Numbered from the stretch's first letter, positions 555-9,849 are shown. The stretch: 64,000 bases of DNA from Verrucomicrobiota bacterium (GCA_029557905.1 JAKQHR010000015.1:1557-65556), one strand, 5' to 3'. A program made the numbers and translations. The notes: generated by a model from the sequence alone, not told the origin.

Positions 555-1541
555 TTACCTGCAGTTCATTCTCTCCCGCAGCTGTTTTGAAAATGCGGGC
601 GCGCCGTGCCGGCGGTTGAGATGATCTTCATCCATGAAATATTTCGTTTCAAAAACAAAATCGGGATTGGCGGAAAAATCGTAGTATTCCACATTGTGCT
701 TCCTCGCAAGCGCTTTCATGTTGCGGCGGAAGGTCTCGACCATGTTCCGGTCGGCCAGTTCCGTGTAGCGGAAGAAGTAGGGCGGGGTGAAGAAGACCGG
801 GCGGATATCCTGCGCCTGAAGGAAGCGGATCGTCCGTTCAAGACAGGCATAGGTGTCTTCCGGCAAACCCGGACAATTCTGGAGCATGTCGTTCATAAGC
901 TTCGCATGTTCCACTATTCTTGCTTTTTCTGCACGTTCAATCAGCACGTTAATATTCCGGAAACCCTTAAACTGGCGGTCCCGGTTCCGGCTTCCGTCGC
1001 GGGGATTGGATTCCTTCGCTGGCCGCGGCTGCTGTCCGAGCAGGCGAAGCAGGGTGGTATACCCGTGGTCGGGCCGGATCAGGTTGATCAGCCGGGCTTT
1101 CACAAAACTTTGGAAGTCTCCCGGAATCCATTTCCAGCCCGGAAGGTAGGCATACGCTTCCACGCGCTTGGACTTGCGGTCGAGAATCGTGGCCGCCCGG
1201 TTGTCGGCAACGAATGTATGAAATGATACGGCATAATAAACCGTGCGCACCTTGGGCAGCCGGGGAATCAGGGTTTTCAGGTGAAGCTCAGTTTCAAAGA
1301 CATCATTCCCGCCCAGCCAGATATGGTATCCCCGCTCACCGAGGGCATCGAAGTCAATGGCCTTGCAGTGAGAATTCCCGGCCGCGACCGCTTCGATTTC
1401 ATTCGCCTGCCGCAGCAGGTTCTGCATCCGGAATTTGATGTCGGGATAGACCGGATCCATCCGGCTCCACAGGGCGGCGCAGAACAAAACAATTCCGATG
1501 AGCCCGGCCGTGAACAATATACTCTGCTGCAGTTGTTTCAT
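555..1541 (-). CDS. SGNH-fold / DltD-like membrane-anchored acyltransferase partner
   Basis: N-terminal TM helix, block-I-like GNSH and C-terminal DEDHLN (DxxH). Sits between two MBOAT genes. Start reassigned to MKQLQQ at 1541, abutting the MBOAT stop. Confidence 0.65.
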   Translation of the reverse strand: MKQLQQSILFTAGLIGIVLFCAALWSRMDPVYPDIKFRMQNLLRQANEIEAVAAGNSHCKAIDFDALGERGYHIWLGGNDVFETELHLKTLIPRLPKVRTVYYAVSFHTFVADNRAATILDRKSKRVEAYAYLPGWKWIPGDFQSFVKARLINLIRPDHGYTTLLRLLGQQPRPAKESNPRDGSRNRDRQFKGFRNINVLIERAEKARIVEHAKLMNDMLQNCPGLPEDTYACLERTIRFLQAQDIRPVFFTPPYFFRYTELADRNMVETFRRNMKALARKHNVEYYDFSANPDFVFETKYFMDEDHLNRRHGAPAFSKQLRERMNCR

Positions 1542-1542
1542 T

Positions 1543-3024
1543 TCAGAACTGAAAATATATAAACTCCACAACTTCAAAGCGTCCGAAAACAAGGATAGTC
1601 ATGATCAGGCTGTAGTAGATCAGCCAGCGGCACCAGACCGGGCGTTCGGCCAGAAATTCCGAGATGCCCTGCCTGTCATGAATAAGCTGGACCGTTTCCA
1701 TCACCGTGACAGCCGCCACTCCTATGAGCAGTTCCCAGAGGGTGTGGCCGACCACCACGGGTGCAAGGGCGGCCCGTCGAAGATGAAAGACATCGTTCAG
1801 CCATGCCGGCAGGCCGGTCGGCAGGTTCCGGATGATGTGCACAGCCTCCCGGATGTCCGCGGCTCTGAAGAATATCCATCCGAAGAAGAGCAGAAAGAGC
1901 GTCGAGGCGATATTGATGAACCGATGAAAACGCGGGTGTTTTTTCAGCCCGGTTTGCTCGCACCATCTGCGCCGGGTGTTGAAACTGAGATATTCCAGAA
2001 TTAGATAGGTTCCATGGAGTGCCCCGCACGCAATAAAAGTCCACGCGGCTCCATGCCAGAGGCCGCTGATCATGAACACCAGCAGCAGACTGATCACCCA
2101 CCACCGTTTGCTTGTGCTGCGGCCGCAGAGGGGGAGATACAGATAATCACGAAGCCACGTGCTCAGTGAAATATGCCAGCGCTGCCAGAATTCCGTGATG
2201 GAGCGGGAAATAAACGGGCGGTTGAAATTGCGCATGAGATCAAATCCCAGTACGCGCGCGGCGCCGATGGCGATGTCCGAGTAGCCCGAAAAGTCACAGT
2301 AGATCTGCCAGCCGAAAAGAATCCCCGCCACAATATAACTGATCCCCTGCCAGTTCTCCGGCTGGTCGAACACCGCATTCACGAACAGCGCGAGCCGGTC
2401 CGCAATCACCAGTTTCTTGAAGAAACCCCAGAGCATCAGACGGAGCCCGCTGCACATGCGGTCAAAACGGAAGTGGTGCACTGCGCTGAACTGCGGCAGA
2501 AGCCGCGCGGCACGCTCTATCGGCCCGGCCACCAGCTGGGGGAAGAAGGACACATAGAGCGCAAATTTCCCAAAATGTGCTTCGGGCCGCTGGCTTCCCC
2601 GATAAACGTCGATGAGATAACTCATGGTCTGGAATGTGTAGAAAGAAATTCCCACCGGCAGCAGCACGTTGAACGCGGGCACTCCGTAAAAAAGATTGAA
2701 GTGATTGAAGAGCGTCCGGAACGAATCGTTGAAGAAGTTGAAATATTTGAACGCAAACAAAATGGCGAGATTCACGCCCAGGCTCACGGTGAGGCACAGA
2801 TGCCTGCGGGAATCGTTCTGCGGGAGTGTCCCGATGCACAGCCCGCCCCCGTAGCCGGCGAGAGTGGACGCGAGAAGCAGCAGCCCGTATTCCGCCTTCC
2901 AGCACATGTAGAAATAGTAGCTGGCGGCCAGCAGCAGCGCCCAGCGGAAGCGATGAGGGCAGAGAAAGTAAGCCGCTGTAACCAGCGGAAAGAATAAAAG
3001 GAACTCCAGCGAATTAAACAGCAT
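1543..3024 (-). CDS. MBOAT family O-acyltransferase (AlgI/DltB-like)
   Basis: LPVGISFYTFQ, FFPQLVAGPIER, DFSGYSDIAIG, FWQRWHISLSTW and SGLWHGA (catalytic His) motifs. Confidence 0.93.
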   Translation of the reverse strand: MLFNSLEFLLFFPLVTAAYFLCPHRFRWALLLAASYYFYMCWKAEYGLLLLASTLAGYGGGLCIGTLPQNDSRRHLCLTVSLGVNLAILFAFKYFNFFNDSFRTLFNHFNLFYGVPAFNVLLPVGISFYTFQTMSYLIDVYRGSQRPEAHFGKFALYVSFFPQLVAGPIERAARLLPQFSAVHHFRFDRMCSGLRLMLWGFFKKLVIADRLALFVNAVFDQPENWQGISYIVAGILFGWQIYCDFSGYSDIAIGAARVLGFDLMRNFNRPFISRSITEFWQRWHISLSTWLRDYLYLPLCGRSTSKRWWVISLLLVFMISGLWHGAAWTFIACGALHGTYLILEYLSFNTRRRWCEQTGLKKHPRFHRFINIASTLFLLFFGWIFFRAADIREAVHIIRNLPTGLPAWLNDVFHLRRAALAPVVVGHTLWELLIGVAAVTVMETVQLIHDRQGISEFLAERPVWCRWLIYYSLIMTILVFGRFEVVEFIYFQF

Positions 3025-3181
3025 GCCCGATTTCTATCCCTGGTTTTCCCCGGGTTTCACAGTGATTCCTCATGATGGGAACGGATTCTCTGAAAATCCT
3101 TGGGCGTGGGCAAGTCCATAAAGACGGGTTTGTTGTCTCGATGATTGCCATGCCGGGGGGCATCGCGATAGAGTGGACAGC

Positions 3182-4303
3182 ATGAAGATTGCTTTTGTGA
3201 AACAGAAATATGTCCCCTTTGGCGGAGGGGAGCTGTATCTCGAAAGGCTGGCCGGGGCCTGCCGCGACCGGGGGGACGAGGTCCATTTGATTACTGCCGC
3301 CTGGCCGGGGAACAGAGTTTCTGCTTTCACTGTTCATCCTGTTCCTGTTCGAAACTGGTCTCATGCCTCGGTGGCGAGGTCTTTCTCGCACAATCTGAAG
3401 GAGATCATCCGGTCGGTCGGGTTCGATGTGGTCTTCAGTCTGGACCGGACCGAACAGCAGCACATCTGGCGTGCGGGCGAGGGGGCTCATCCGGTCTGGC
3501 TGGACCGCCGCGGCGAATTTGAGCCGGCGTGGAAAGTCAGGCTGGCGCGTCTGTCATCGCGGCAAAGGACCCTGTTGAAGCTGGAGAGGCGATGCGTGAG
3601 CCGGACCCCTGTGATTATCGCGAATTCGCAGATGGTGAAAAATGATCTCGAGAACTGCTATGATCTTTCCGGAAAACGCGTGGAAATAATTCACAATGGC
3701 GTTGATTTTTCCCGCTTTTCTCCGGACGGACGCGAAGAGGCGCGCACCCAGGTGCGCTCACGCTTGCAGGTGAATCCCGACGGCCCGCTGCTGCTGTTTG
3801 CCGGAAGCGGGTTTCGCAGGAAGGGGCTCCCGGAACTGATGCGTGCGCTGCGTGGCGTGCCCGATGCGGTCCTGCTGGTTATCGGCCGGGACAAATCCGC
3901 CCCCTGGATTCGTTTGGCTGCGAGTCTGGGGGTCTCTGGCCGGGTGCGTTTTCTGGCCCCATCCGAATCTCTGCCGGAGCTGTATCGCGCGGCCGATGTG
4001 ACGGTGTTCCCGACATGGTTTGATTCCTTCGGGTTTGTCGGACTCGAGTCCATGGCCTGCGGGACCCCGCTGGTCACGACCCCTTTTGCCGGTGTATCGG
4101 AGCTGGTCCGCGAGGGGGTCAATGGCGCGGTGATCGCGCGCCCGGATGCCGCCGATGAACTGGCGGCGGCCATACAAGACCAGGTTTCCCGGAAAGACAG
4201 GAGCCGGGCCATCGCGGATTCCGTGAGAGAATATTCTCTGGAAAACAACATCCGCCGAACCCTTGCGGTCATAGATGACACCGCGTTCAGCCGCAAATCA
4301 TGA
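3182..4303 (+). CDS. Glycosyltransferase family 4 (WaaG/RfaG-like)
   Basis: GGGE N-terminal motif, RKG, and DSFGFVGLESMACGTP (EX7E-type with Asp in place of the first Glu). Confidence 0.9.
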   Translation: MKIAFVKQKYVPFGGGELYLERLAGACRDRGDEVHLITAAWPGNRVSAFTVHPVPVRNWSHASVARSFSHNLKEIIRSVGFDVVFSLDRTEQQHIWRAGEGAHPVWLDRRGEFEPAWKVRLARLSSRQRTLLKLERRCVSRTPVIIANSQMVKNDLENCYDLSGKRVEIIHNGVDFSRFSPDGREEARTQVRSRLQVNPDGPLLLFAGSGFRRKGLPELMRALRGVPDAVLLVIGRDKSAPWIRLAASLGVSGRVRFLAPSESLPELYRAADVTVFPTWFDSFGFVGLESMACGTPLVTTPFAGVSELVREGVNGAVIARPDAADELAAAIQDQVSRKDRSRAIADSVREYSLENNIRRTLAVIDDTAFSRKS

Positions 4304-5039
4304 GCTTTGCCGGACATGTCCGCCAGCGAAAGCGAAGCACGGGATGTTCAGCCGCGACAGCTCCTGCCATTCGATTGAGAAGCGTGAAATAATATTGATG
4401 AAACATTCTGCTCGGCGAATTTCGCAGAATTTCCGGGGTCAGCCCGCTTCCGGCCGCTTTTGAGATGGCCTCCTTGAGCGTCCAGACTTTGTAGAATGCC
4501 CGCACGCGCTCCGGTTCCGGAAGTTTGCTGATCCTGTTTATTTCTTCCCCGGAACAGGATTTGAGCATCATGCGCTGCAGGTCTCTGACGGGCCTTTCTT
4601 CTTCAATATCAACCCCGACCGGCCATGATTTTGCCAGGGCGAACAGCAGATCGCTCCCGGTATGGGAAACGCTGAAGAACAGCGGGCGAAGGCCGTCCCG
4701 GCTGACCGGCATCATCGGCTGCCCTCCGGCGCTGTACTCCAGCGCGCATGGATACAGCCTGCTTCCGGTATGCAGGCCCAGCAGCCGCCTCAACAGGCCC
4801 CGGCGGATCATGAAACTGTTCTGCGGCTCCTGCCGCAGGAATCTTCCGGCCCGGGCGGCATCATCCGGAGTGAGCCTGCTGCGGGCCGGTTCGAGCAGGC
4901 TGTTTGTGTCCGACAGATCAAAATACCAAAGCTGAATATCGCCCGGCTGCAGCGTGTCGGTTTGGACATTCCACTCTCCGCGCGTGAAGCGGGGCTCTAT
5001 GCATGTTGAATCCGGCATCATCACTCCAGAATAATCCAC
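4287..5039 (-). CDS. Sfp-type 4'-phosphopantetheinyl transferase
   Basis: FSVSHT, VGVDIE and WTLKEAISKA motifs; divergent from an ACP-containing gene. Confidence 0.9.
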   Translation of the reverse strand: MDYSGVMMPDSTCIEPRFTRGEWNVQTDTLQPGDIQLWYFDLSDTNSLLEPARSRLTPDDAARAGRFLRQEPQNSFMIRRGLLRRLLGLHTGSRLYPCALEYSAGGQPMMPVSRDGLRPLFFSVSHTGSDLLFALAKSWPVGVDIEEERPVRDLQRMMLKSCSGEEINRISKLPEPERVRAFYKVWTLKEAISKAAGSGLTPEILRNSPSRMFHQYYFTLLNRMAGAVAAEHPVLRFRWRTCPAKLMICG

Positions 5040-5128: not shown

Positions 5129-7837
5129 ATGAAAGTCAGAGGGGAATACAGGAGCATCATTGACGTGGTTGAGGCGCTGACGGCGACGGATCCCGGCGCT
5201 GCGGCATGCACCTTTCTTGCGGACGGACTGAACGACCGGTGTGCATGGACCCGGCGCGATTTGTACAGCCGCGCCTGTGCGGTGGCCAGAGTTCTGTCGG
5301 ACCGCAAAGCCCGCGGCCAGCCGGCTCTGCTCCTGTACTATCCCGGCCTGGAATTTCTTGCGGCGCTGTTCGGCTGTCTTTTCTCGGGGGTTGTTGCCAT
5401 CCCGGCCTATCCTCCGGGCATCAGCGCGCGTTCCTCGCGGCGAATTGAGAGCATTCTGGAGGATGCCGGTTCGTCACTGATTCTGACCACATCCAGAATA
5501 AGGGAAACGCGCCGCACAAGCATGGACCGTCACTCGGCTCTGCCGCGCCAGGCCTGGATTGAGACTGAACTGATTGCATTGGACTCGGCTGAAGACTGTG
5601 TTCCTGTCCGGGCGCAGGAAAGCGATGTGGCCTATCTGCAGTATACCTCCGGCTCCACATCAACCCCCAAGGGTGTAGTTGTCACCCATGGCAATCTGTT
5701 CCACAACCTCACCTGCATTGACCGGACATTCAATGTTTCCGGCGGGTCCGGAATTGCTTCCTGGATGCCCCACTTTCATGATTTCGGCCTTGTGTTCGGT
5801 CTTCTTGCGCCGATCTTCACGGGAAAGCCCTGCACTCTGATGCCTCCGGCGGTTTTTGTGCAGAATCCGTGGCTGTGGCTGAAGGCCATCTCCGACGCCC
5901 GTGCCAGTCATGCTGCCGCCCCCAACTTTGCCTATGACCTGTGCAATACCCGCATAACAGATGCCCAGCTGGAAACGCTTGATTTGTCCTGCATCACGGC
6001 GCTGCTTAATGGCGCGGAGCCCGTTCGCGCATCCACGCTGGATGAATTCACGCGGCGTTTTGCGGTCTGCGGATTCCGGCGCGAAATGTTTTGTCCCGTG
6101 TATGGCCTGGCCGAGATCACCGTCGGGGCGGTTTGCACCCGTTTTGATGAACCGCCGGTCTGTTTGTCCGTGGATGCGGACGCGATCGAGCAGCACCATG
6201 CTGTGCCCGCGGAGGGGAATGCTCCCAAGAGCCGCCTGCTGGTTTCCTGCGGGCATGAAGTGTTCGGACACCGAATGGAAATTGTGGATCCGGTGGCTCT
6301 TGTGCGCGTACCGAAGGGCGGGGTGGGTGAAATCTGGCTGGATTCTCCCAGCGTGTGTGCGGGGTACTGGAACCGGCCGGATGAAACCCGGCAAACCTTC
6401 CAGGCTTGTCTGGCAGGCACGAATGAGGGGCCGTTCCTGCGCACCGGCGATCTGGGGTTCATGCACGACGGGAATTTGTATATCACCGGCCGCATTAAGG
6501 ACCTCATTATCATTCACGGGGTTAACTATTATCCGCAGGACATTGAGCTGTCGTGCGAGAAGGCGCATCGCGCCCTCAAAGCGAATGCCGGCGCGGCCTT
6601 CTCCGTGGAGCGCGGCGGATCAGAAAAGCTGGTGGTGGTGTACGAACAGGACCGCACCGTGAAAGACCCGGATATCGGCCAGATCGCGATGGCTGTGCGC
6701 CACGCGGTGTCTGAAGAGCATGAGCTGCAGATTTATGACTTCGTCATGGTGCGGCCGGGCACGATTCCCAAGACTTCCAGCGGAAAAATCCAGCGGCATG
6801 CGTGCAAAGCGGATTATCTGAACGGCAGCCTGAAGGTGGTTGCATCCAGCCGGCTTGAAATTGCGGCCGCCGGAGAAAGAAATATCGCGCCACCCGCTGA
6901 TGAAATGGAGCGGCAGCTGGCGCGGATATGGGAGGAAGTCCTCGAGATATCGCCGATCGGGGTGACCGACAACTATTTCGATCTCGGGGGGAACTCGCTC
7001 CATGCCCTGCGTATCATCGGTAAAATTGGAGAGACAACCGGCCGTGAACTGCAGCTGACCGATTTGTTTCAGACTCCGACGATACGCGGAGTGGCTGAGC
7101 TGCTGCGGCGGGCGGACGAAACCGCCGAGTTGATCGCGCTGGTCCCGTTGCAGCCGGCGGGGACATGTACTCCGTTTTTCTGCGTGCATCCAGGCGGCGG
7201 AATGGTCATGTGCTTCAATGATCTGGCGCACAGCGTCGGAAAGGATCAGCCGTTCTATGCTCTGCAGTCGCAGGGTCTGGATGGCCGTCGTTCCCCGCTC
7301 AAGCGTATTGAAGACATGGCCTCTCTGTACATTCGCGAAATAAAAACAGTGCAGCCTGCCGGGCCCTATCGGCTGGGGGGAATGTGCCTTGGCGGGGTCA
7401 TTGCCTATGAAATGGCGCAGCAGCTGGTGCGGCTGGGAGAGCCGGTGGAATTCCTGGGAGTGCTGGATACCCGTCGCCCACCCGGCTGGTACAGACCTCT
7501 GTTCCGCCAGCGCAGGGTGATCAAGGAGTGGCTGGGCATGATATCCCATGCGGGACAGAAGCGTGTGCTGAAGCGGATATGGCTGGCAAACGAGAAAGCC
7601 CGCAACCGGTATCGCCCGGAACCGTACCCCGGGAAAATTACGCTTTTCTGGAGCGATCACGAGGGTGATGAGCAGGCCGACCGGCAGGAAATGTGGCGCA
7701 GACTTGCGCTGGGCGGTCTTGACATAATTCCCATCGCGGGGGCATCGCATCGCGCCATCCTCGCGGCGCCTCATGTGCAGACGCTTGCAGACAGGATCGT
7801 GTCCTGCCTTGAACCTTTCAACGGGATCCGCTCATGA
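5129..7837 (+). CDS. Fatty acyl-AMP ligase - acyl carrier - thioesterase tridomain protein
   Basis: YLQYTSGSTSTPKG, WMPHFHDFGL, YGLAE, FAAL insertion ending LVSCG, LRTGDLG and PKTSSGKIQR; carrier motif DNYFDLGGNSL; TE with HPGGG, GMCLGG and GASH. Confidence 0.9.
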   Translation: MKVRGEYRSIIDVVEALTATDPGAAACTFLADGLNDRCAWTRRDLYSRACAVARVLSDRKARGQPALLLYYPGLEFLAALFGCLFSGVVAIPAYPPGISARSSRRIESILEDAGSSLILTTSRIRETRRTSMDRHSALPRQAWIETELIALDSAEDCVPVRAQESDVAYLQYTSGSTSTPKGVVVTHGNLFHNLTCIDRTFNVSGGSGIASWMPHFHDFGLVFGLLAPIFTGKPCTLMPPAVFVQNPWLWLKAISDARASHAAAPNFAYDLCNTRITDAQLETLDLSCITALLNGAEPVRASTLDEFTRRFAVCGFRREMFCPVYGLAEITVGAVCTRFDEPPVCLSVDADAIEQHHAVPAEGNAPKSRLLVSCGHEVFGHRMEIVDPVALVRVPKGGVGEIWLDSPSVCAGYWNRPDETRQTFQACLAGTNEGPFLRTGDLGFMHDGNLYITGRIKDLIIIHGVNYYPQDIELSCEKAHRALKANAGAAFSVERGGSEKLVVVYEQDRTVKDPDIGQIAMAVRHAVSEEHELQIYDFVMVRPGTIPKTSSGKIQRHACKADYLNGSLKVVASSRLEIAAAGERNIAPPADEMERQLARIWEEVLEISPIGVTDNYFDLGGNSLHALRIIGKIGETTGRELQLTDLFQTPTIRGVAELLRRADETAELIALVPLQPAGTCTPFFCVHPGGGMVMCFNDLAHSVGKDQPFYALQSQGLDGRRSPLKRIEDMASLYIREIKTVQPAGPYRLGGMCLGGVIAYEMAQQLVRLGEPVEFLGVLDTRRPPGWYRPLFRQRRVIKEWLGMISHAGQKRVLKRIWLANEKARNRYRPEPYPGKITLFWSDHEGDEQADRQEMWRRLALGGLDIIPIAGASHRAILAAPHVQTLADRIVSCLEPFNGIRS

Positions 7838-8643
7838 GTGTGCTGGCTGTAAACGTGATCTGCACGTCATATTCAGGCAACACGTGGCTCAATTTGATGC
7901 TGGGCGCGCATTCGCGGGCCTTCTGCGTGGGCGAATACAAAAACATACGCAAGACCGGCCGGGTGAACTGCATGCTTCACGGCGCGGACTGCCCGGTCTG
8001 GAGCCGTTTTGATGCCTCGGCGCAGGAGCATCCGTATCTGCAGCTCAGCCGCCTGACCGGAAAGAACATTCTGGTGATCAGCAATTCACTTGATTATCTC
8101 CCGGCCGATCCCGGACCGGGGATTGAGCAGCGATTCATTCATCTCATTCGCGACGGGCGCGCGGTGGCCGCCAGTTTCAGGCGGAAGCACCGCGGAATGA
8201 ACATCTGGCAGGCTGCCCGCCGCTGGCGGCACGACCACCGGAAAAATCTGCGCCGCCTGAGCCGGCATCCGGCAGAAGCCGTTCTGCCCGTGCGCTACGA
8301 AGAGTTGAAGTCCGACCCCGAGAGAGAAGTGCGCCGCATTTGCGGATTCCTCGGGATCCCCTTTGAACCGTCCATGCTGGAATACTGGACGCGGGACATG
8401 CATTATCTGGGCGGGAATCAGGGCACGCTGCTGGCGCTCGCGCGCAAACAGGGAGGGGATCTGCCCGAGTCCTCGCGCAGGGAGCAGGGCCGGGAGCAGC
8501 GTGACTGGAAGCTGGAATTCTACGCCGGGTCCGATCCTCAGAAGTTTACAGACGACCGCTGGAAAAGCGATCTGACCTCCATTCAGCTTGGGATATTCAA
8601 TTTGGCCGCCGGCGGTTTGAACCGCAGACTGGGCTATCAGTGA
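7834..8643 (+). CDS. PAPS-dependent sulfotransferase family protein
   Basis: SYSGNTWLNLMLGAH (5'-PSB-like), HLIRDGRAVAAS (3'-PB) and VRYEELKSDPEREVRRICGFLG. ATGA overlap with the FAAL gene. Confidence 0.82.
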   Translation: MSVLAVNVICTSYSGNTWLNLMLGAHSRAFCVGEYKNIRKTGRVNCMLHGADCPVWSRFDASAQEHPYLQLSRLTGKNILVISNSLDYLPADPGPGIEQRFIHLIRDGRAVAASFRRKHRGMNIWQAARRWRHDHRKNLRRLSRHPAEAVLPVRYEELKSDPEREVRRICGFLGIPFEPSMLEYWTRDMHYLGGNQGTLLALARKQGGDLPESSRREQGREQRDWKLEFYAGSDPQKFTDDRWKSDLTSIQLGIFNLAAGGLNRRLGYQ

Positions 8644-9849
8644 TTATTCCACTGTAATGCCCAGCGCCGCGAGGGTCTCGTACGTCAGCCCGCCTTCGGC
8701 AATGTCACGGTCCTTCTGGAACTGTGCCACCGCCTCCCGGGTCTGGCCCCCGATCACGCCGTCCACGCCGCCCGTGTTGAAGCCTTGCTCAATCAGGGCT
8801 GTCTGAATCTGGCGGATGATGTCCGGAGAAAGGTTGGATTCGCACAGCACGCGCTTCCAGAGCATCCGGCCGGGTTCCACCATTACCTCTTTCGAAACGG
8901 TCTGATACACCGCCGGAATAATTTTGCGCTCCTCGCGCTCCGGTGCGGTCATCTTCTGCACCCTCACCGTTTCGTATTCGGCCGGCACGGTCACATCGCG
9001 CGTTGTTGCGGGTTTGGTCATTACGTGCTTGCGGATGGTCTCATATTCAGCGGGGACCTGGATTTCCCTGACACTGGCCGGCTCCGCCAGCACGCGTTTT
9101 TTAACCTTTTCGTATACCGGGGGGAGTTCCACCAGGCACAGAATCTCGCCGGTGGCGTTGTCCACTGTGGTGATCAGGCCCGTGCCCTTTTTCCACTCGC
9201 GCCGCGCGGGCTTCACCATCACTTCCTCCTCGACCCACTCATAGCGCGCGGGAATCTCCTCGGTGCGCACAGAGGCGGGAGTCACCAGCACTTCCTCTTC
9301 CACCCATTCATATTCTGCCGGCACAACCTCAAGCTCCGTGGAAGCCTCCTTCACAAGCACTTCTTCCTCGACCCATTCGAACTGCGCGGGGATGACCACG
9401 ATTTCTTCGGACTCCGGCTGGAGAAGCACCTGCTCGGTCACGGTTTCATATCGGGGCGGAATGTGAACTCTGGCATAGCATTCACCGGGCCGGGCGTCCG
9501 GGGGAAGCGCCTCGTCTCCGCCGGCCGACGGTTCAGTCACGGCGGGTTCGATCTCCTCGTTGAACACTTCGGGAGGGGGAATCGCGGCCGGGTCCGGGAG
9601 GGTTTCTGTCTCATCGGCGGGTCCAACCGGCTCTTCTTCGGCATAGGCCGGAACAGCCGGTGCCGGACGGACCGCTATCGTGTGCGCCGGAGGGACATCA
9701 TAGACAACCTCGGCCGGGGGCACGTCCCAGTCGGTCTGCTGCCCCGCCTTTATTTTATAGGCATTGGAGGGCTCGAAAAATTCGCATCCCGCCAGCAGCA
9801 TGACGGACAGTGCGGCGGCCGCGCAGAAGACCAGAGACTTGTTTTTCAT
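8644..9849 (-). CDS. Lipoprotein with Val/Glu-rich repeats and C-terminal peptidoglycan-binding domain
   Basis: Lipobox LAGC; repeated PAEYEWVEEEVLV units; C-terminal IQTAL..GFNTGGVDGVIGGQTREAVAQFQ (PG_binding_1). Confidence 0.8.
   Translation of the reverse strand: MKNKSLVFCAAAALSVMLLAGCEFFEPSNAYKIKAGQQTDWDVPPAEVVYDVPPAHTIAVRPAPAVPAYAEEEPVGPADETETLPDPAAIPPPEVFNEEIEPAVTEPSAGGDEALPPDARPGECYARVHIPPRYETVTEQVLLQPESEEIVVIPAQFEWVEEEVLVKEASTELEVVPAEYEWVEEEVLVTPASVRTEEIPARYEWVEEEVMVKPARREWKKGTGLITTVDNATGEILCLVELPPVYEKVKKRVLAEPASVREIQVPAEYETIRKHVMTKPATTRDVTVPAEYETVRVQKMTAPEREERKIIPAVYQTVSKEVMVEPGRMLWKRVLCESNLSPDIIRQIQTALIEQGFNTGGVDGVIGGQTREAVAQFQKDRDIAEGGLTYETLAALGITVE

What the first reader, a model, noticed from the sequence alone, without database searches (positions are those of the whole stretch)
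7130..8643. Thioesterase with Cys nucleophile (GMCLG) translationally coupled to a sulfotransferase
Seen: the TE elbow reads G-M-C-L-G instead of GxSxG, with His retained (GASH), and the next gene overlaps by ATGA. Established: Cys-TEs in SulM (sulfazecin, paired with sulfotransferase SulN) and ObiF (obafluorin) perform ring-closing or transfer chemistry, and CurM/Ols ST-TE pairs make terminal alkenes. Inference: this TE may be a transacylase or sulfate-dependent release enzyme rather than a hydrolase. Caveat: GxCxG also occurs in other uncharacterised TE-like domains.
Basis: partly seen in the sequence, partly recalled or inferred. Interest (0 to 1): 0.62.

Follow-up and report, generated by a model that had tools for sequence, protein, structure and literature searches.

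The report
Fatty-acid loader with cysteine thioesterase plus sulfotransferase
A rare Kiritimatiellia enzyme that activates a fatty acid, carries it and passes it to a cysteine-type thioesterase is co-transcribed with a sulfotransferase inside a cell-envelope sugar (LPS-core-like) locus, so it most likely makes an acylated, sulfated envelope glycolipid rather than a beta-lactam, beta-lactone or alkene.

Summary
ORF 5129-7837 (+) encodes a 902-aa FAAL-ACP-TE with elbow G-M-C753-L-G, Asp780 and His874. Its stop overlaps (ATGA) the start of a 269-aa PAPS sulfotransferase at 7834-8643.

- **Cys is not exceptional here.** 54 of the 121 nearest TE domains carry GxCxG, with at least 5 Ser/Cys switches on the tree. 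The best solved relative, AB3403, is also a Cys-TE.
- **The TE is EntF/AB3403-type.** The acid sits at the canonical position. SulM and ObiF rank 16th and 35th by fold, and CurM TE does not appear.
- **No beta-hydroxy-forming module exists**, so CurM-like alkene release is unlikely.

What does hold:
- GT4-PPTase-FAAL-ACP-TE is conserved in two divergent lineages, each followed by a different, non-orthologous sulfotransferase.
- Nine relatives keep the GT4 orthologue (with heptosyltransferase, GT2 or WaaP-like kinase) but lack the FAAL-ACP-TE, and they have no sulfotransferase.
- Orthologues of the window's sulfotransferase elsewhere lie in glycan loci without carrier proteins.

Best reading, at about 40%: the Cys-TE acts as an acyltransferase onto an anionic, sulfated envelope glycolipid or LPS core. 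A loader followed directly by a hydrolase would be futile. This is a new variant of known parts, of moderate interest.

The parts
5129..7837 (+). FAAL-ACP-TE gene (902 aa): fatty acyl-AMP ligase (aa 1-571), carrier domain (596-659, Ser623), thioesterase domain (682-902)
   Evidence: Translation. Pfam AMP-binding, AMP-dom_DIP2-like, PP-binding and Thioesterase. The best NCBIfam models are FAAL families (PRK05850, FadD32, FadD21/28), all below their equivalog cut-offs.
7172..7834 (+). Thioesterase domain, EntF/AB3403-type alpha/beta hydrolase with a Cys753-Asp780-His874 triad
   Evidence: By sequence the best PDB hits are AB3403 4ZXH (GWCFG elbow, MIDTR acid) and NocB TE. AF2 model has pLDDT 89. 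Foldseek rank 1 is AB3403, followed by EntF PCP-TE at TM 0.75.
7385..7387 (+). Codon TGC for the nucleophile Cys753 in the elbow G-M-C-L-G
   Evidence: Invariant in the orthologues. TGC is one base change away from the Ser codons AGC and TCC.
7466..7474 (+). Catalytic Asp780 followed by T-R782-R783. The R-R pair is invariant in this family and rare (3-5%) in the other 115 nearest TE domains.
   Evidence: The Asp aligns with the canonical ('position I') Asp of AB3403 and EntF.
7748..7750 (+). Codon for the catalytic His874 (GASH)
   Evidence: His occupies this column in 97 of 121 aligned TE domains.
6995..6997 (+). Codon for Ser623, the phosphopantetheine attachment site (GGNSL)
   Evidence: Invariant in the orthologues.
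7834..7837 (+). ATGA overlap: start of the sulfotransferase inside the stop of FAAL-ACP-TE
   Evidence: The same overlap occurs in L001 and L135. In the L002/L021 lineage the sulfotransferase is instead convergent.
7834..8643 (+). PAPS-type sulfotransferase (269 aa). It has a 5'-PSB loop SYSGNTW (aa 12-18), a candidate base Glu34, and a 3'-PB motif RDGRA...S (106-114).
   Evidence: Pfam. Family alignment with invariant G15, T17, R106-A110 and S114. AF2 pLDDT 88.7. Foldseek returns CurM ST, TPST1/2 and OLS ST at TM 0.47-0.60.
4287..5039 (-). Sfp/HetI-type phosphopantetheinyl transferase, divergently transcribed from FAAL-ACP-TE
   Evidence: Pfam ACPS and NCBIfam HetI. Conserved next to FAAL-ACP-TE in L001, L002/L021 and L135.
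3173..4303 (+). WaaG-like GT4 glycosyltransferase
   Evidence: Best PDB hit is WaaG/RfaG over the full length, E 2.6e-29. 54% orthologue sits beside the 57% FAAL-ACP-TE. Orthologues in 9 other genomes lie with GT9 heptosyltransferase, GT2 or a Kdo/WaaP kinase.
555..3024 (-). MBOAT (1543-3024) and its SGNH-like partner (555-1592). These are peripheral and linked to the module only within this genus.
   Evidence: Pfam MBOAT and a weak GDSL_2 match; DltB model at 159 bits, below its cut-off. Present in L001 and L135, absent from L002/L021 and L004.

Best explanation
The two genes form an operon inside an envelope-glycan (LPS-core-like) locus.

**Proposed steps**
1. The FAAL domain adenylates a free fatty acid and loads it on its own carrier domain. 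The divergently encoded Sfp-type PPTase has primed that domain.
2. The acyl group moves by an energy-neutral thioester exchange onto Cys753 of the EntF/AB3403-type TE.
3. The TE then transfers the acyl group to a hydroxyl or amine of an acceptor, not to water.
4. That acceptor is most likely the cytoplasmic-face glycolipid, or LPS inner-core intermediate, built by the adjacent WaaG-like GT4.
5. The cytoplasmic PAPS sulfotransferase sulfates the same glycoconjugate. It occupies the locus position where relatives encode a WaaP-type kinase.

The product would be an acylated, sulfated envelope glycolipid.

**Shown:** domain order, triad, operon overlap, conservation and co-occurrence.

**Inferred:** transferase rather than hydrolase activity, the identity of the acceptor, and the order of sulfation and acylation.
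For: 1. **Architecture.** The gene is FAAL-ACP-TE with no condensing or extension domain. Hydrolysis of an unmodified chain would therefore be futile.
2. **Conserved triad of the right type.** The Cys-Asp-His triad is invariant in five orthologues. The TE type is that of AB3403, EntF, NocB and Pks13. Pks13 TE is an established acyl-transferase onto a sugar (own knowledge). In ObiF, replacing Cys with Ser turns ring closure into hydrolysis (PMC6668435).
3. **Conserved module.** GT4-PPTase-FAAL-ACP-TE is conserved at 52-57% identity in a second lineage, L002/L003/L021.
4. **Sulfotransferase follows the enzyme.** In both lineages a sulfotransferase follows directly, but the two are non-orthologous: 23-28% identity, one of them TPST-like. 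Nine loci with the GT4 orthologue but no FAAL-ACP-TE have no sulfotransferase within about 8 kb.
5. **The GT4 points to LPS core.** Its best PDB hit is WaaG. Where neighbours were scanned, its orthologues lie with GT9 heptosyltransferase and GT2 (two genomes), GT2 and further GT4s (one), or a Kdo/WaaP-family kinase (one).
6. **The sulfotransferase family is glycan-linked.** Orthologues of the window's enzyme (38-50% identity) lie in glycan loci in 7 of the 8 other contexts examined. Neighbours there include GT4, methyltransferases, further sulfotransferases, Kdo/WaaP kinases and Wzy. None of the 8 has a carrier protein.
7. **The genome has the supporting genes.** It encodes APS kinase, needed for PAPS, and three heptosyltransferases.
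8. **Basic lid residues.** Family-specific invariant residues R782, R783, K799, K815, K823 and R825 lie just after the catalytic Asp and in the lid helices. This fits an anionic substrate.
Against: - No biochemical data exist for any member of the family.
- Only two independent lineages carry the full module, so the co-occurrence statistic is thin (2/2 against 0/9, Fisher about 0.02).
- A third FAAL-ACP-TE lineage (L004, 47-50% identity) has neither GT4 nor a sulfotransferase nearby.
- In L002 the sulfotransferase is convergent and in an operon with a Kdo-family kinase. It may therefore belong to the core locus rather than to the TE.
- In the window's own genus the GT4 is not next to heptosyltransferases.
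- The GT4 call rests on roughly 25-30% similarity to WaaG plus synteny in relatives.
- The positions of the basic lid residues relative to the active site were not inspected in 3D.
Confidence: 0.4

Rival explanations
1. On-carrier tailoring followed by hydrolytic release. A hydroxy fatty acid is loaded on the ACP. It is sulfated by the sulfotransferase, and perhaps glycosylated by the GT4, while tethered. The Cys-TE then hydrolyses or oligomerises the modified chain to give a free sulfated (glyco)lipid surfactant. RhlA/RhlB-type hydroxy-acid glycolipids would be the analogue.
For: - The operon overlap with the sulfotransferase is conserved in the genus.
- Sulfotransferases co-occur with FAAL-ACP-TE.
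- The nearest solved relative of the sulfotransferase by sequence and fold is CurM ST, which acts on an ACP-bound substrate.
- The basic lid residues could bind a sulfated acyl chain.
- SulN sets a precedent for in-trans sulfation of a carrier-bound intermediate before transfer to a Cys-TE (PMC11298585).
Against: - None of the 8 other contexts of the sulfotransferase's orthologues holds a carrier protein; 7 are glycan loci and one is a glycan-degradation neighbourhood.
- Similarity to CurM ST is weak (18% identity, TM 0.52) and no better than to tyrosylprotein sulfotransferases.
- The second lineage uses a TPST-like sulfotransferase.
- No hydroxylase or hydroxy-acid source is encoded in the conserved module.
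Confidence: 0.2
2. Adjacency without a shared product. The GT4 and the sulfotransferase decorate the LPS core. PPTase plus FAAL-ACP-TE is an independent cassette that landed in this locus. It might be an Aas-like enzyme that re-acylates lyso-lipids or deacylated lipid A with scavenged fatty acids.
For: - The GT4 orthologue is much more widespread (13 of 88 genera at E<=1e-40, about 10 genomes at 44-53% identity) than FAAL-ACP-TE.
- The L004 orthologue stands without GT4 or sulfotransferase, near PagL and ExbBD.
- In L002 the sulfotransferase is in a convergent operon with a Kdo-family kinase.
- NCBIfam shows a distant match to the acyl-ACP/phospholipid acyltransferase Aas.
Against: - A sulfotransferase is found only where FAAL-ACP-TE is present. 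The two are non-orthologous enzymes at the same position.
- The ATGA translational coupling is kept across the genus.
Confidence: 0.22
3. Dlt-like export of an acyl group. FAAL-ACP plays the role of DltA/DltC and hands the acyl group to the neighbouring MBOAT and its SGNH-like partner. These would then acylate an extracytoplasmic polymer.
For: - An MBOAT and an SGNH-like protein lie 2 kb upstream, with a second MBOAT at the window edge.
- The MBOAT matches the DltB model at 159 bits.
- The same layout occurs in L001 and L135.
- An earlier first-reader note (e1-5098156) makes the same proposal.
Against: - The MBOATs are absent from the L002/L003/L021 and L004 lineages.
- The model leaves the conserved Cys-TE without a role.
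- In L135 the MBOAT operon continues into LplA and an E1-lipoyl-KASIII gene, not into the FAAL operon.
- The DltB score is far below the cut-off of 375.
Confidence: 0.08
4. CurM/OLS-like sulfate-assisted decarboxylative release to a terminal alkene, or SulM/ObiF-like four-membered ring closure. These are the first reader's analogies.
For: - The elbow is GxCxG.
- A sulfotransferase is adjacent, and its closest solved relative is CurM ST.
- A FAAL-ACP loader also starts the olefin synthase (PMC11837247).
Against: - No KS, AT or KR is present to make a beta-hydroxyacyl-ACP.
- CurM TE is not found by phmmer at E<=10 and is not in the Foldseek top 50.
- The SulM criteria fail: Asp position II, the Q-C-N motif and a DAP-activating A domain (PMC11298585).
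- The ObiF feature fails too: Asp is not relocated, and Asp rather than Gly sits at the canonical site (PMC6668435).
- The substrate is a fatty acid, not a beta-amino or beta-hydroxy amino acid.
Confidence: 0.05

Closest known systems
AB3403 (ABBFA_003403) termination module of Acinetobacter baumannii, PDB 4ZXH
   Same: It is the best sequence match (E 2.5e-21) and the best fold match (E 1e-23) of the TE. It has the same GxCxG elbow (GWCFG) and the same canonical position of the catalytic Asp (MIDTR against VLDTR). PMC11298585 names it as the only other solved Cys-TE with the acid at position I.
   Different: AB3403 is a C-A-PCP-TE amino-acid module of a lipopeptide pathway. Its own TE chemistry is uncharacterised, and no sulfotransferase or GT4 is involved. 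Identity is only 26%.
CurM / olefin synthase ST-TE offloading (PDB 4GBM, 4GOX; PMC11837247)
   Same: A FAAL-ACP loader, a PAPS sulfotransferase and a TE all occur in one pathway. CurM ST is the top solved match of the window's sulfotransferase by sequence and by fold.
   Different: In CurM/OLS the ST and TE are fused after a KS-AT-KR-ACP module that makes the beta-hydroxy substrate, and the TE is a distinct Ser enzyme. Here there is no extension module. The TE is an EntF-type Cys enzyme unrelated to CurM TE at the sensitivity used. The ST similarity is 18% identity and TM 0.52, equal to that for TPSTs.
SulM TE + SulN (sulfazecin) and ObiF TE (obafluorin)
   Same: Both have a Cys nucleophile. 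In sulfazecin a sulfotransferase acts in trans before the intermediate is passed to the TE cysteine (PMC11298585, PMC6668435).
   Different: SulM and ObiF relocate the catalytic Asp, and SulM has a Q-C-N motif and a DAP-specific A domain. The window has Asp at the canonical site, an M-C-L motif and a fatty-acid loader. They rank 16th and 35th by fold at 18% identity and are not found by sequence.
Pks13 TE (mycolate transfer to trehalose), and Aas (acyl-ACP synthetase/acyltransferase)
   Same: These are functional analogies. In each, an activated fatty acyl on a carrier is passed to a lipid or sugar acceptor instead of water. Pks13 TE is a clear sequence and fold relative (E 4e-12; TM about 0.58). 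The transferase role of Pks13 TE and the function of Aas are from own knowledge.
   Different: Pks13 uses Ser and follows a condensing module. Aas uses a PlsC-type acyltransferase and a free ACP.
AlmEFG (Vibrio cholerae lipid A glycine addition) and LpsS (Sinorhizobium LPS sulfotransferase)
   Same: These are precedents for carrier-protein-dependent decoration of LPS and for sulfated LPS, recalled from own knowledge.
   Different: No sequence relationship was tested. AlmE activates glycine and uses an LpxL-like transferase. Neither system combines acylation and sulfation.

Membership tests
Fatty acyl-AMP ligase with fused carrier (FAAL-ACP loader) | FAAL-type adenylation domain (not an amino-acid A domain) followed by a PP-binding domain with the conserved Ser | tested here: met
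   Pfam AMP-binding, the DIP2-like FAAL C-domain and PP-binding are all present. The top NCBIfam hits are FAAL models at 350-438 bits, below their equivalog cut-offs. Ser623 lies in GGNSL.
EntF/AB3403-type type I thioesterase with Cys nucleophile | GxCxG elbow, catalytic Asp at the canonical position after the next strand, and a C-terminal His | tested here: met
   Cys753, Asp780 and His874 align to AB3403 GWCFG and MIDTR. Foldseek rank 1 is AB3403, and EntF PCP-TE has TM 0.75.
SulM-type beta-lactam-forming TE (criteria of PMC11298585) | Catalytic Asp at the relocated 'position II' | tested here: not met
   The Asp is at position I, as in AB3403 and EntF (PMC11298585).
SulM-type beta-lactam-forming TE (criteria of PMC11298585) | Gln-Cys-Asn motif around the nucleophile, and a DAP-activating A domain | tested here: not met
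   The motif is Met-Cys-Leu. The loader is a FAAL.
SulM-type beta-lactam-forming TE (criteria of PMC11298585) | Positively charged pocket (two of three Arg positions) for the sulfamate | tested here: inconclusive
   Family-specific R782, R783, K799, K815, K823 and R825 exist. Their equivalence to the SulM Arg positions and their 3D placement were not checked.
ObiF-type beta-lactone-forming TE (PMC6668435) | GxCxG together with a RifR-like triad: Asp moved to the later strand and Gly at the canonical Asp site | tested here: not met
   GxCxG is present, but Asp occupies the canonical site. ObiF1 ranks 35th by fold at 18% identity and is not found by phmmer at E<=10.
CurM/OLS ST-TE terminal-alkene offloading | A KS-AT-KR-ACP module supplying beta-hydroxyacyl-ACP, with ST and TE fused downstream | tested here: not met
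   No KS, AT or KR is present in the gene or its neighbours. ST and TE are separate genes. The reference architecture is taken from PMC11837247.
CurM/OLS ST-TE terminal-alkene offloading | CurM-type TE | tested here: not met
   No CurM TE appears among PDB sequence hits at E<=10 or in the Foldseek top 50.
CurM/OLS ST-TE terminal-alkene offloading | Sulfotransferase of the CurM/OLS 'activating' clade | tested here: inconclusive
   CurM ST is the top hit (phmmer E 9e-8; Foldseek E 2e-9, TM 0.52), but TPST1/2 score alike at TM 0.47-0.60. Orthologues lie in carrier-free glycan loci.
PAPS-dependent sulfotransferase | 5'-phosphosulfate-binding loop and 3'-phosphate-binding motif on a sulfotransferase fold | tested here: met
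   Pfam Sulfotransfer_3 and Sulfotransfer_1 match. G15, T17, R106-A110 and S114 are invariant. The AF2 model (pLDDT 88.7) matches more than 100 sulfotransferase structures. The basic residue of the loop is replaced by Tyr or Phe in most members of the family alignment.
Dlt-like carrier/MBOAT acylation system | Adenylating enzyme, carrier, MBOAT and DltD-like partner conserved together | tested here: not met
   They occur together only in the window's genus. The MBOAT is absent beside the orthologues in L002/L021 and L004.
WaaG-like LPS-core GT4 | Similarity to WaaG, and a genomic association with inner-core enzymes | tested here: met
   WaaG is the best PDB hit over the full length, E 2.6e-29. 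Orthologues at 44-53% identity lie beside GT9 heptosyltransferase, GT2 or a Kdo/WaaP kinase in the neighbourhoods scanned. The acceptor itself is not testable here.

The most novel reading that the evidence does not exclude
Some Kiritimatiellia may decorate their LPS inner core, or a related envelope glycolipid, with both a sulfate and an extra fatty acyl chain. The sulfate would replace WaaP-type phosphate. The acyl chain would be delivered by a self-contained FAAL-ACP-Cys-TE acyltransferase whose Arg/Lys-rich lid recognises the sulfated acceptor. That would be a carrier-protein-dependent, sulfate-gated LPS acylation system with no described counterpart.
Probability: 0.15. Interest if true: 0.7.

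Novelty: new variant of a known kind. Interest (0 to 1): 0.4.

Why it matters
If the best reading holds, this would be a new way of remodelling the Gram-negative envelope. Free fatty acids would be attached to a glycolipid by an assembly-line-type thioesterase acting as an acyltransferase, together with sulfation in place of phosphorylation.

That would bear on three things:
- how marine and anaerobic PVC bacteria build their outer membrane in sulfate-rich, phosphate-poor settings;
- the catalytic range of Cys-thioesterases;
- the annotation of the many GxCxG TE domains, which this work shows to be common rather than a marker of beta-lactam or beta-lactone chemistry.

If instead the enzyme proves to be a plain hydrolase, or unrelated to its neighbours, the locus is ordinary.

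Tried and rejected
- **Kinship with SulM, ObiF and CurM TE.** Sought by PDB phmmer up to E=10 and by Foldseek. Rejected as close relatives.
- **ST fused to FAAL-ACP-TE.** I looked for fusions among longer homologues: P0008, P0016, P0086 and P0312, P0223, P0224. None was found. P0312 carries TPR repeats instead.
- **G030 FAAL hit (41-44% identity).** It turned out to be FAAL-ACP-KS, so not a member of the family. The G015 hit is a split FAAL without ACP-TE.
- **Genome-wide scan of 185,579 species genomes with the ACP-TE profile.** It found only the window's genus and one Verrucomicrobiota MAG with a FAAL in front. All 77 other loci are NRPS or PKS termini.
- **Alcanivorax glycine-glucolipid cluster.** I recalled it as a GT/NRPS/PPTase analogue but could not document it from the library, so it is not used.
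- **CurM ST structure paper.** It is not held. The equivalence of Glu34 to the CurM or TPST catalytic Glu therefore remains an unverified recollection.
- **Promoter and terminator scan.** It gave only weak consensus matches and was not used as evidence.

Full report
**1. Observation**

The window carries an uninterrupted ORF at 5129-7837 (+) of 902 aa. Pfam resolves four domains:
- an AMP-binding domain (20-414);
- the DIP2-like C-terminal subdomain typical of fatty acyl-AMP ligases (458-571);
- a PP-binding carrier (596-659);
- a Thioesterase domain (682-784 matched, running to the C-terminus).

The best NCBIfam models are FAAL families such as PRK05850 and FadD32, all below their equivalog cut-offs.

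The elbow reads G-M-C753-L-G, with the TGC codon at 7385-7387. The acid is Asp780 in LGVLDT and the base is His874 in GASH. The next ORF, 7834-8643 (+), begins in ctcATGAgt. It encodes a 269-aa Sulfotransfer_3/Sulfotransfer_1 protein. Its N-terminus coincides with that of all family members, so the ATG at 7834 is the true start.

**2. Conservation**

Homologues of the whole protein are rare. A search of the 5.8-billion-protein collection found five close relatives with the same architecture: P0003 to P0006 and P0010, at 99-47% identity over ACP-TE. All keep Cys, Asp and His.

A scan of one genome per 185,579 species found this ACP-TE behind a FAAL only in the window's genus and in one Verrucomicrobiota MAG. 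Among 40 relatives of the class, only the sister genome has it. Two other hits are a FAAL-ACP-KS and a split FAAL.

A search of 1.84 billion representatives added a more distant form (42% identity) that carries C-terminal TPR repeats. It also has a Cys elbow.

**3. Is the Cys special?**

Among the 121 nearest TE domains, mostly NRPS and PKS termini, 54 have Cys and 66 have Ser. On a maximum-likelihood tree the character changes at least 5 times, or 10-11 by parsimony. Cys TGC is one base away from the Ser codons AGC and TCC.

The homologue search is seeded by shared words, so the Cys share may be inflated. The scatter on the tree is nonetheless real. The window's TE sits in a well-supported 14-member clade, 13 of which carry Cys.

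The best solved relative, by sequence (E 2.5e-21) and by fold (E 1e-23), is AB3403. It too has a Cys elbow (GWCFG) and the acid at the canonical position.

- **SulM.** PMC11298585 states that AB3403 is the only other solved Cys-TE with the acid at 'position I'. It lists the marks of SulM-type lactam formers: Asp at position II, a Q-C-N motif, an Arg pocket and a DAP-activating A domain. The window fails the first, second and fourth.
- **ObiF.** PMC6668435 shows that ObiF relocates the Asp and puts Gly at the canonical site. The window does not.
- **Ranks.** SulM and ObiF rank 16th and 35th by fold at 18% identity. Neither is found by phmmer at E<=10.
- **CurM TE.** It is found by neither method.

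The Cys is real and conserved, but it does not mark beta-lactam, beta-lactone or alkene chemistry here.

**4. The sulfotransferase**

The family alignment shows an intact cofactor site:
- a loop S-Y/F-S-G-x-T-W with invariant G15 and T17;
- a near-invariant G33-E34;
- RDGRA...S at 106-114.

The AF2 model is confident at pLDDT 88.7. Its closest solved relatives are CurM ST (phmmer E 9e-8; Foldseek E 2e-9, TM 0.52), TPST1/2 (TM 0.47-0.60) and OLS ST (TM 0.56), all at 16-21% identity. It belongs to the broad CurM/TPST-like branch, not specifically to the 'activating' clade. The genome encodes APS kinase twice, so PAPS is available.

The family is rare in the phylum, at 3 of 401 genomes. I examined eight other genomic contexts of orthologues at 38-50% identity. 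Seven are glycan loci. Their neighbours include GT4 glycosyltransferases, methyltransferases, further sulfotransferases, Kdo/WaaP-family kinases and a Wzy-type protein, often upstream of lepA. The eighth, L012, sits among a sulfatase and a GH172 glycosidase. None of the eight contains a carrier protein, FAAL or TE. This favours a sugar acceptor.

**5. The neighbourhood**

The locus has three further parts.
- **PPTase.** An Sfp/HetI-type PPTase at 4287-5039 (-) is divergently transcribed from the FAAL gene.
- **GT4.** The GT4 at 3173-4303 (+) has WaaG, the LPS core glucosyltransferase, as its best solved relative over its full length (E 2.6e-29).
- **MBOAT pair.** Further left lie an MBOAT and an SGNH-like partner, with a second MBOAT at the window edge.

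In the second lineage (L002/L003/L021) the order GT4, PPTase and FAAL-ACP-TE is kept, with 54% and 52-57% identity. A sulfotransferase again follows directly. That enzyme is a different one: 23-28% identical, TPST-like and convergent, in an operon with a Kdo-family kinase. MBOATs are absent there.

Orthologues of the GT4 (44-53% identity) occur in about ten other genomes of the class without FAAL-ACP-TE. I scanned the neighbours in five of these. They lie with GT9 heptosyltransferase and GT2 in two genomes. They lie with GT2 and further GT4s in one, with a Kdo/WaaP kinase in one, and with another GT4 and a methyltransferase in one. These are inner-core-type loci.

None of the nine fetched loci has a sulfotransferase or PPTase within about 8 kb (tblastn, E<=0.01, four diverse sulfotransferase queries). 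Sulfotransferases therefore accompany the FAAL-ACP-TE in 2 of 2 lineages against 0 of 9 without it. Because non-orthologous enzymes were recruited, this argues for a functional link with sulfation. The sample is small.

A third FAAL-ACP-TE lineage (L004) has neither GT4 nor a sulfotransferase. It lies near PagL, ExbBD and an APS kinase.

**6. Mechanism**

*Shown:* a fatty-acid loader, its carrier, a dedicated PPTase and a Cys-Asp-His TE with no extension module; an operon with a PAPS sulfotransferase; a position inside a WaaG-type glycan locus.

*Inferred:* hydrolysis of an unmodified acyl-ACP that was just made at the cost of ATP would be futile. The TE must therefore either transfer the acyl group to another nucleophile or release a chain that was tailored while on the carrier.

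Three points favour transfer:
- A thioester acyl-enzyme is suited to poor nucleophiles. In ObiF the Cys-to-Ser change diverts ring closure to hydrolysis (PMC6668435).
- Pks13 TE is a clear relative and transfers mycolate to trehalose (own knowledge).
- The family has invariant, family-specific basic residues just after the catalytic Asp (R782, R783) and in the lid helices (K799, K815, K823, R825). The other 115 TE domains rarely have them. This fits an anionic partner such as a sulfated or phosphorylated glycolipid.

My best reading, at about 0.4, is O- or N-acylation of the GT4-built, sulfated envelope glycolipid or LPS core at the cytoplasmic face.

The rivals, with my estimates, are:
- on-carrier sulfation or glycosylation followed by release (0.2);
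- mere adjacency, with an Aas-like re-acylation role (0.22);
- a Dlt-like hand-over to the MBOATs, which is confined to one genus and leaves the TE unexplained (0.08);
- CurM-, SulM- or ObiF-like chemistry (0.05).

**7. Comparison and novelty**

The protein is a member of the FAAL-ACP loaders and of the EntF/AB3403-type TEs. It is not a member of the SulM, ObiF or CurM TE types.

The combination of a stand-alone FAAL-ACP-Cys-TE, a PPTase, a WaaG-like GT4 and a sulfotransferase is, as far as these searches show, undescribed. It is restricted to a few uncultured PVC lineages. I rate it a new variant of a known kind and of moderate interest. The more interesting point is the envelope-glycan context and the recurrent pairing with sulfation.

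Noticed in passing
L134:1-7685 (Logan SRR19603255 contig): There are tandem paralogues of a FAAL-ACP-TE-TPR protein. P0312 (1227 aa, 42% identical to the window protein) has elbow GRCLG and Glu instead of Asp at the acid position. It is flanked on both sides by further TE-TPR or TPR-rich ORFs that are cut by the contig ends.
   Followed up: partly
L001:1-169 and L135:1-2501 (same genus, upstream of the MBOAT operon; beyond the window's contig start): A 1103-aa fusion of 2-oxoacid dehydrogenase E1 (E1_dh, Transket_pyr, Transketolase_C), a lipoyl domain and a KASIII (ACP_syn_III) lies upstream of the MBOAT genes. In L135 it shares a strand and is contiguous with an LplA-like ligase, a 334-aa protein and the MBOAT. 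It may be a fused branched-starter unit for fatty-acid synthesis.
   Followed up: no
L017:1139-10418: This sulfate-rich glycan cluster has four sulfotransferase genes (two of the window's family), two GT4 genes and two methyltransferases within 9 kb. It is probably a sulfated polysaccharide or LPS locus of a Planctomycetes-like organism.
   Followed up: no
window:7466-7609 (TE residues 780-827): Family-specific invariant residues R782, R783, K799, W801, K815, W818, E822, K823 and R825 lie after the catalytic Asp and in the lid helices. The other 115 nearest TE domains rarely have them.
   Followed up: partly
window:8643-8644: The sulfotransferase gene and the convergent PG-binding lipoprotein gene (8644-9849, -) abut with no spacer. 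This arrangement is conserved in L001 and L135.
   Followed up: no
L125:1-5371 (G030:C17): A FAAL-ACP-KS polyketide starter at a contig end lies next to an ArsR-type regulator, a SurA-like chaperone and an outer-membrane phospholipase A1. This is another envelope-associated FAAL, unrelated to the TE family studied here.
   Followed up: partly
window:1-549: The window starts inside a second MBOAT gene, the left copy of an MBOAT-SGNH-MBOAT array. L001 shows two complete MBOAT/partner pairs, whereas L135 has only one.
   Followed up: no
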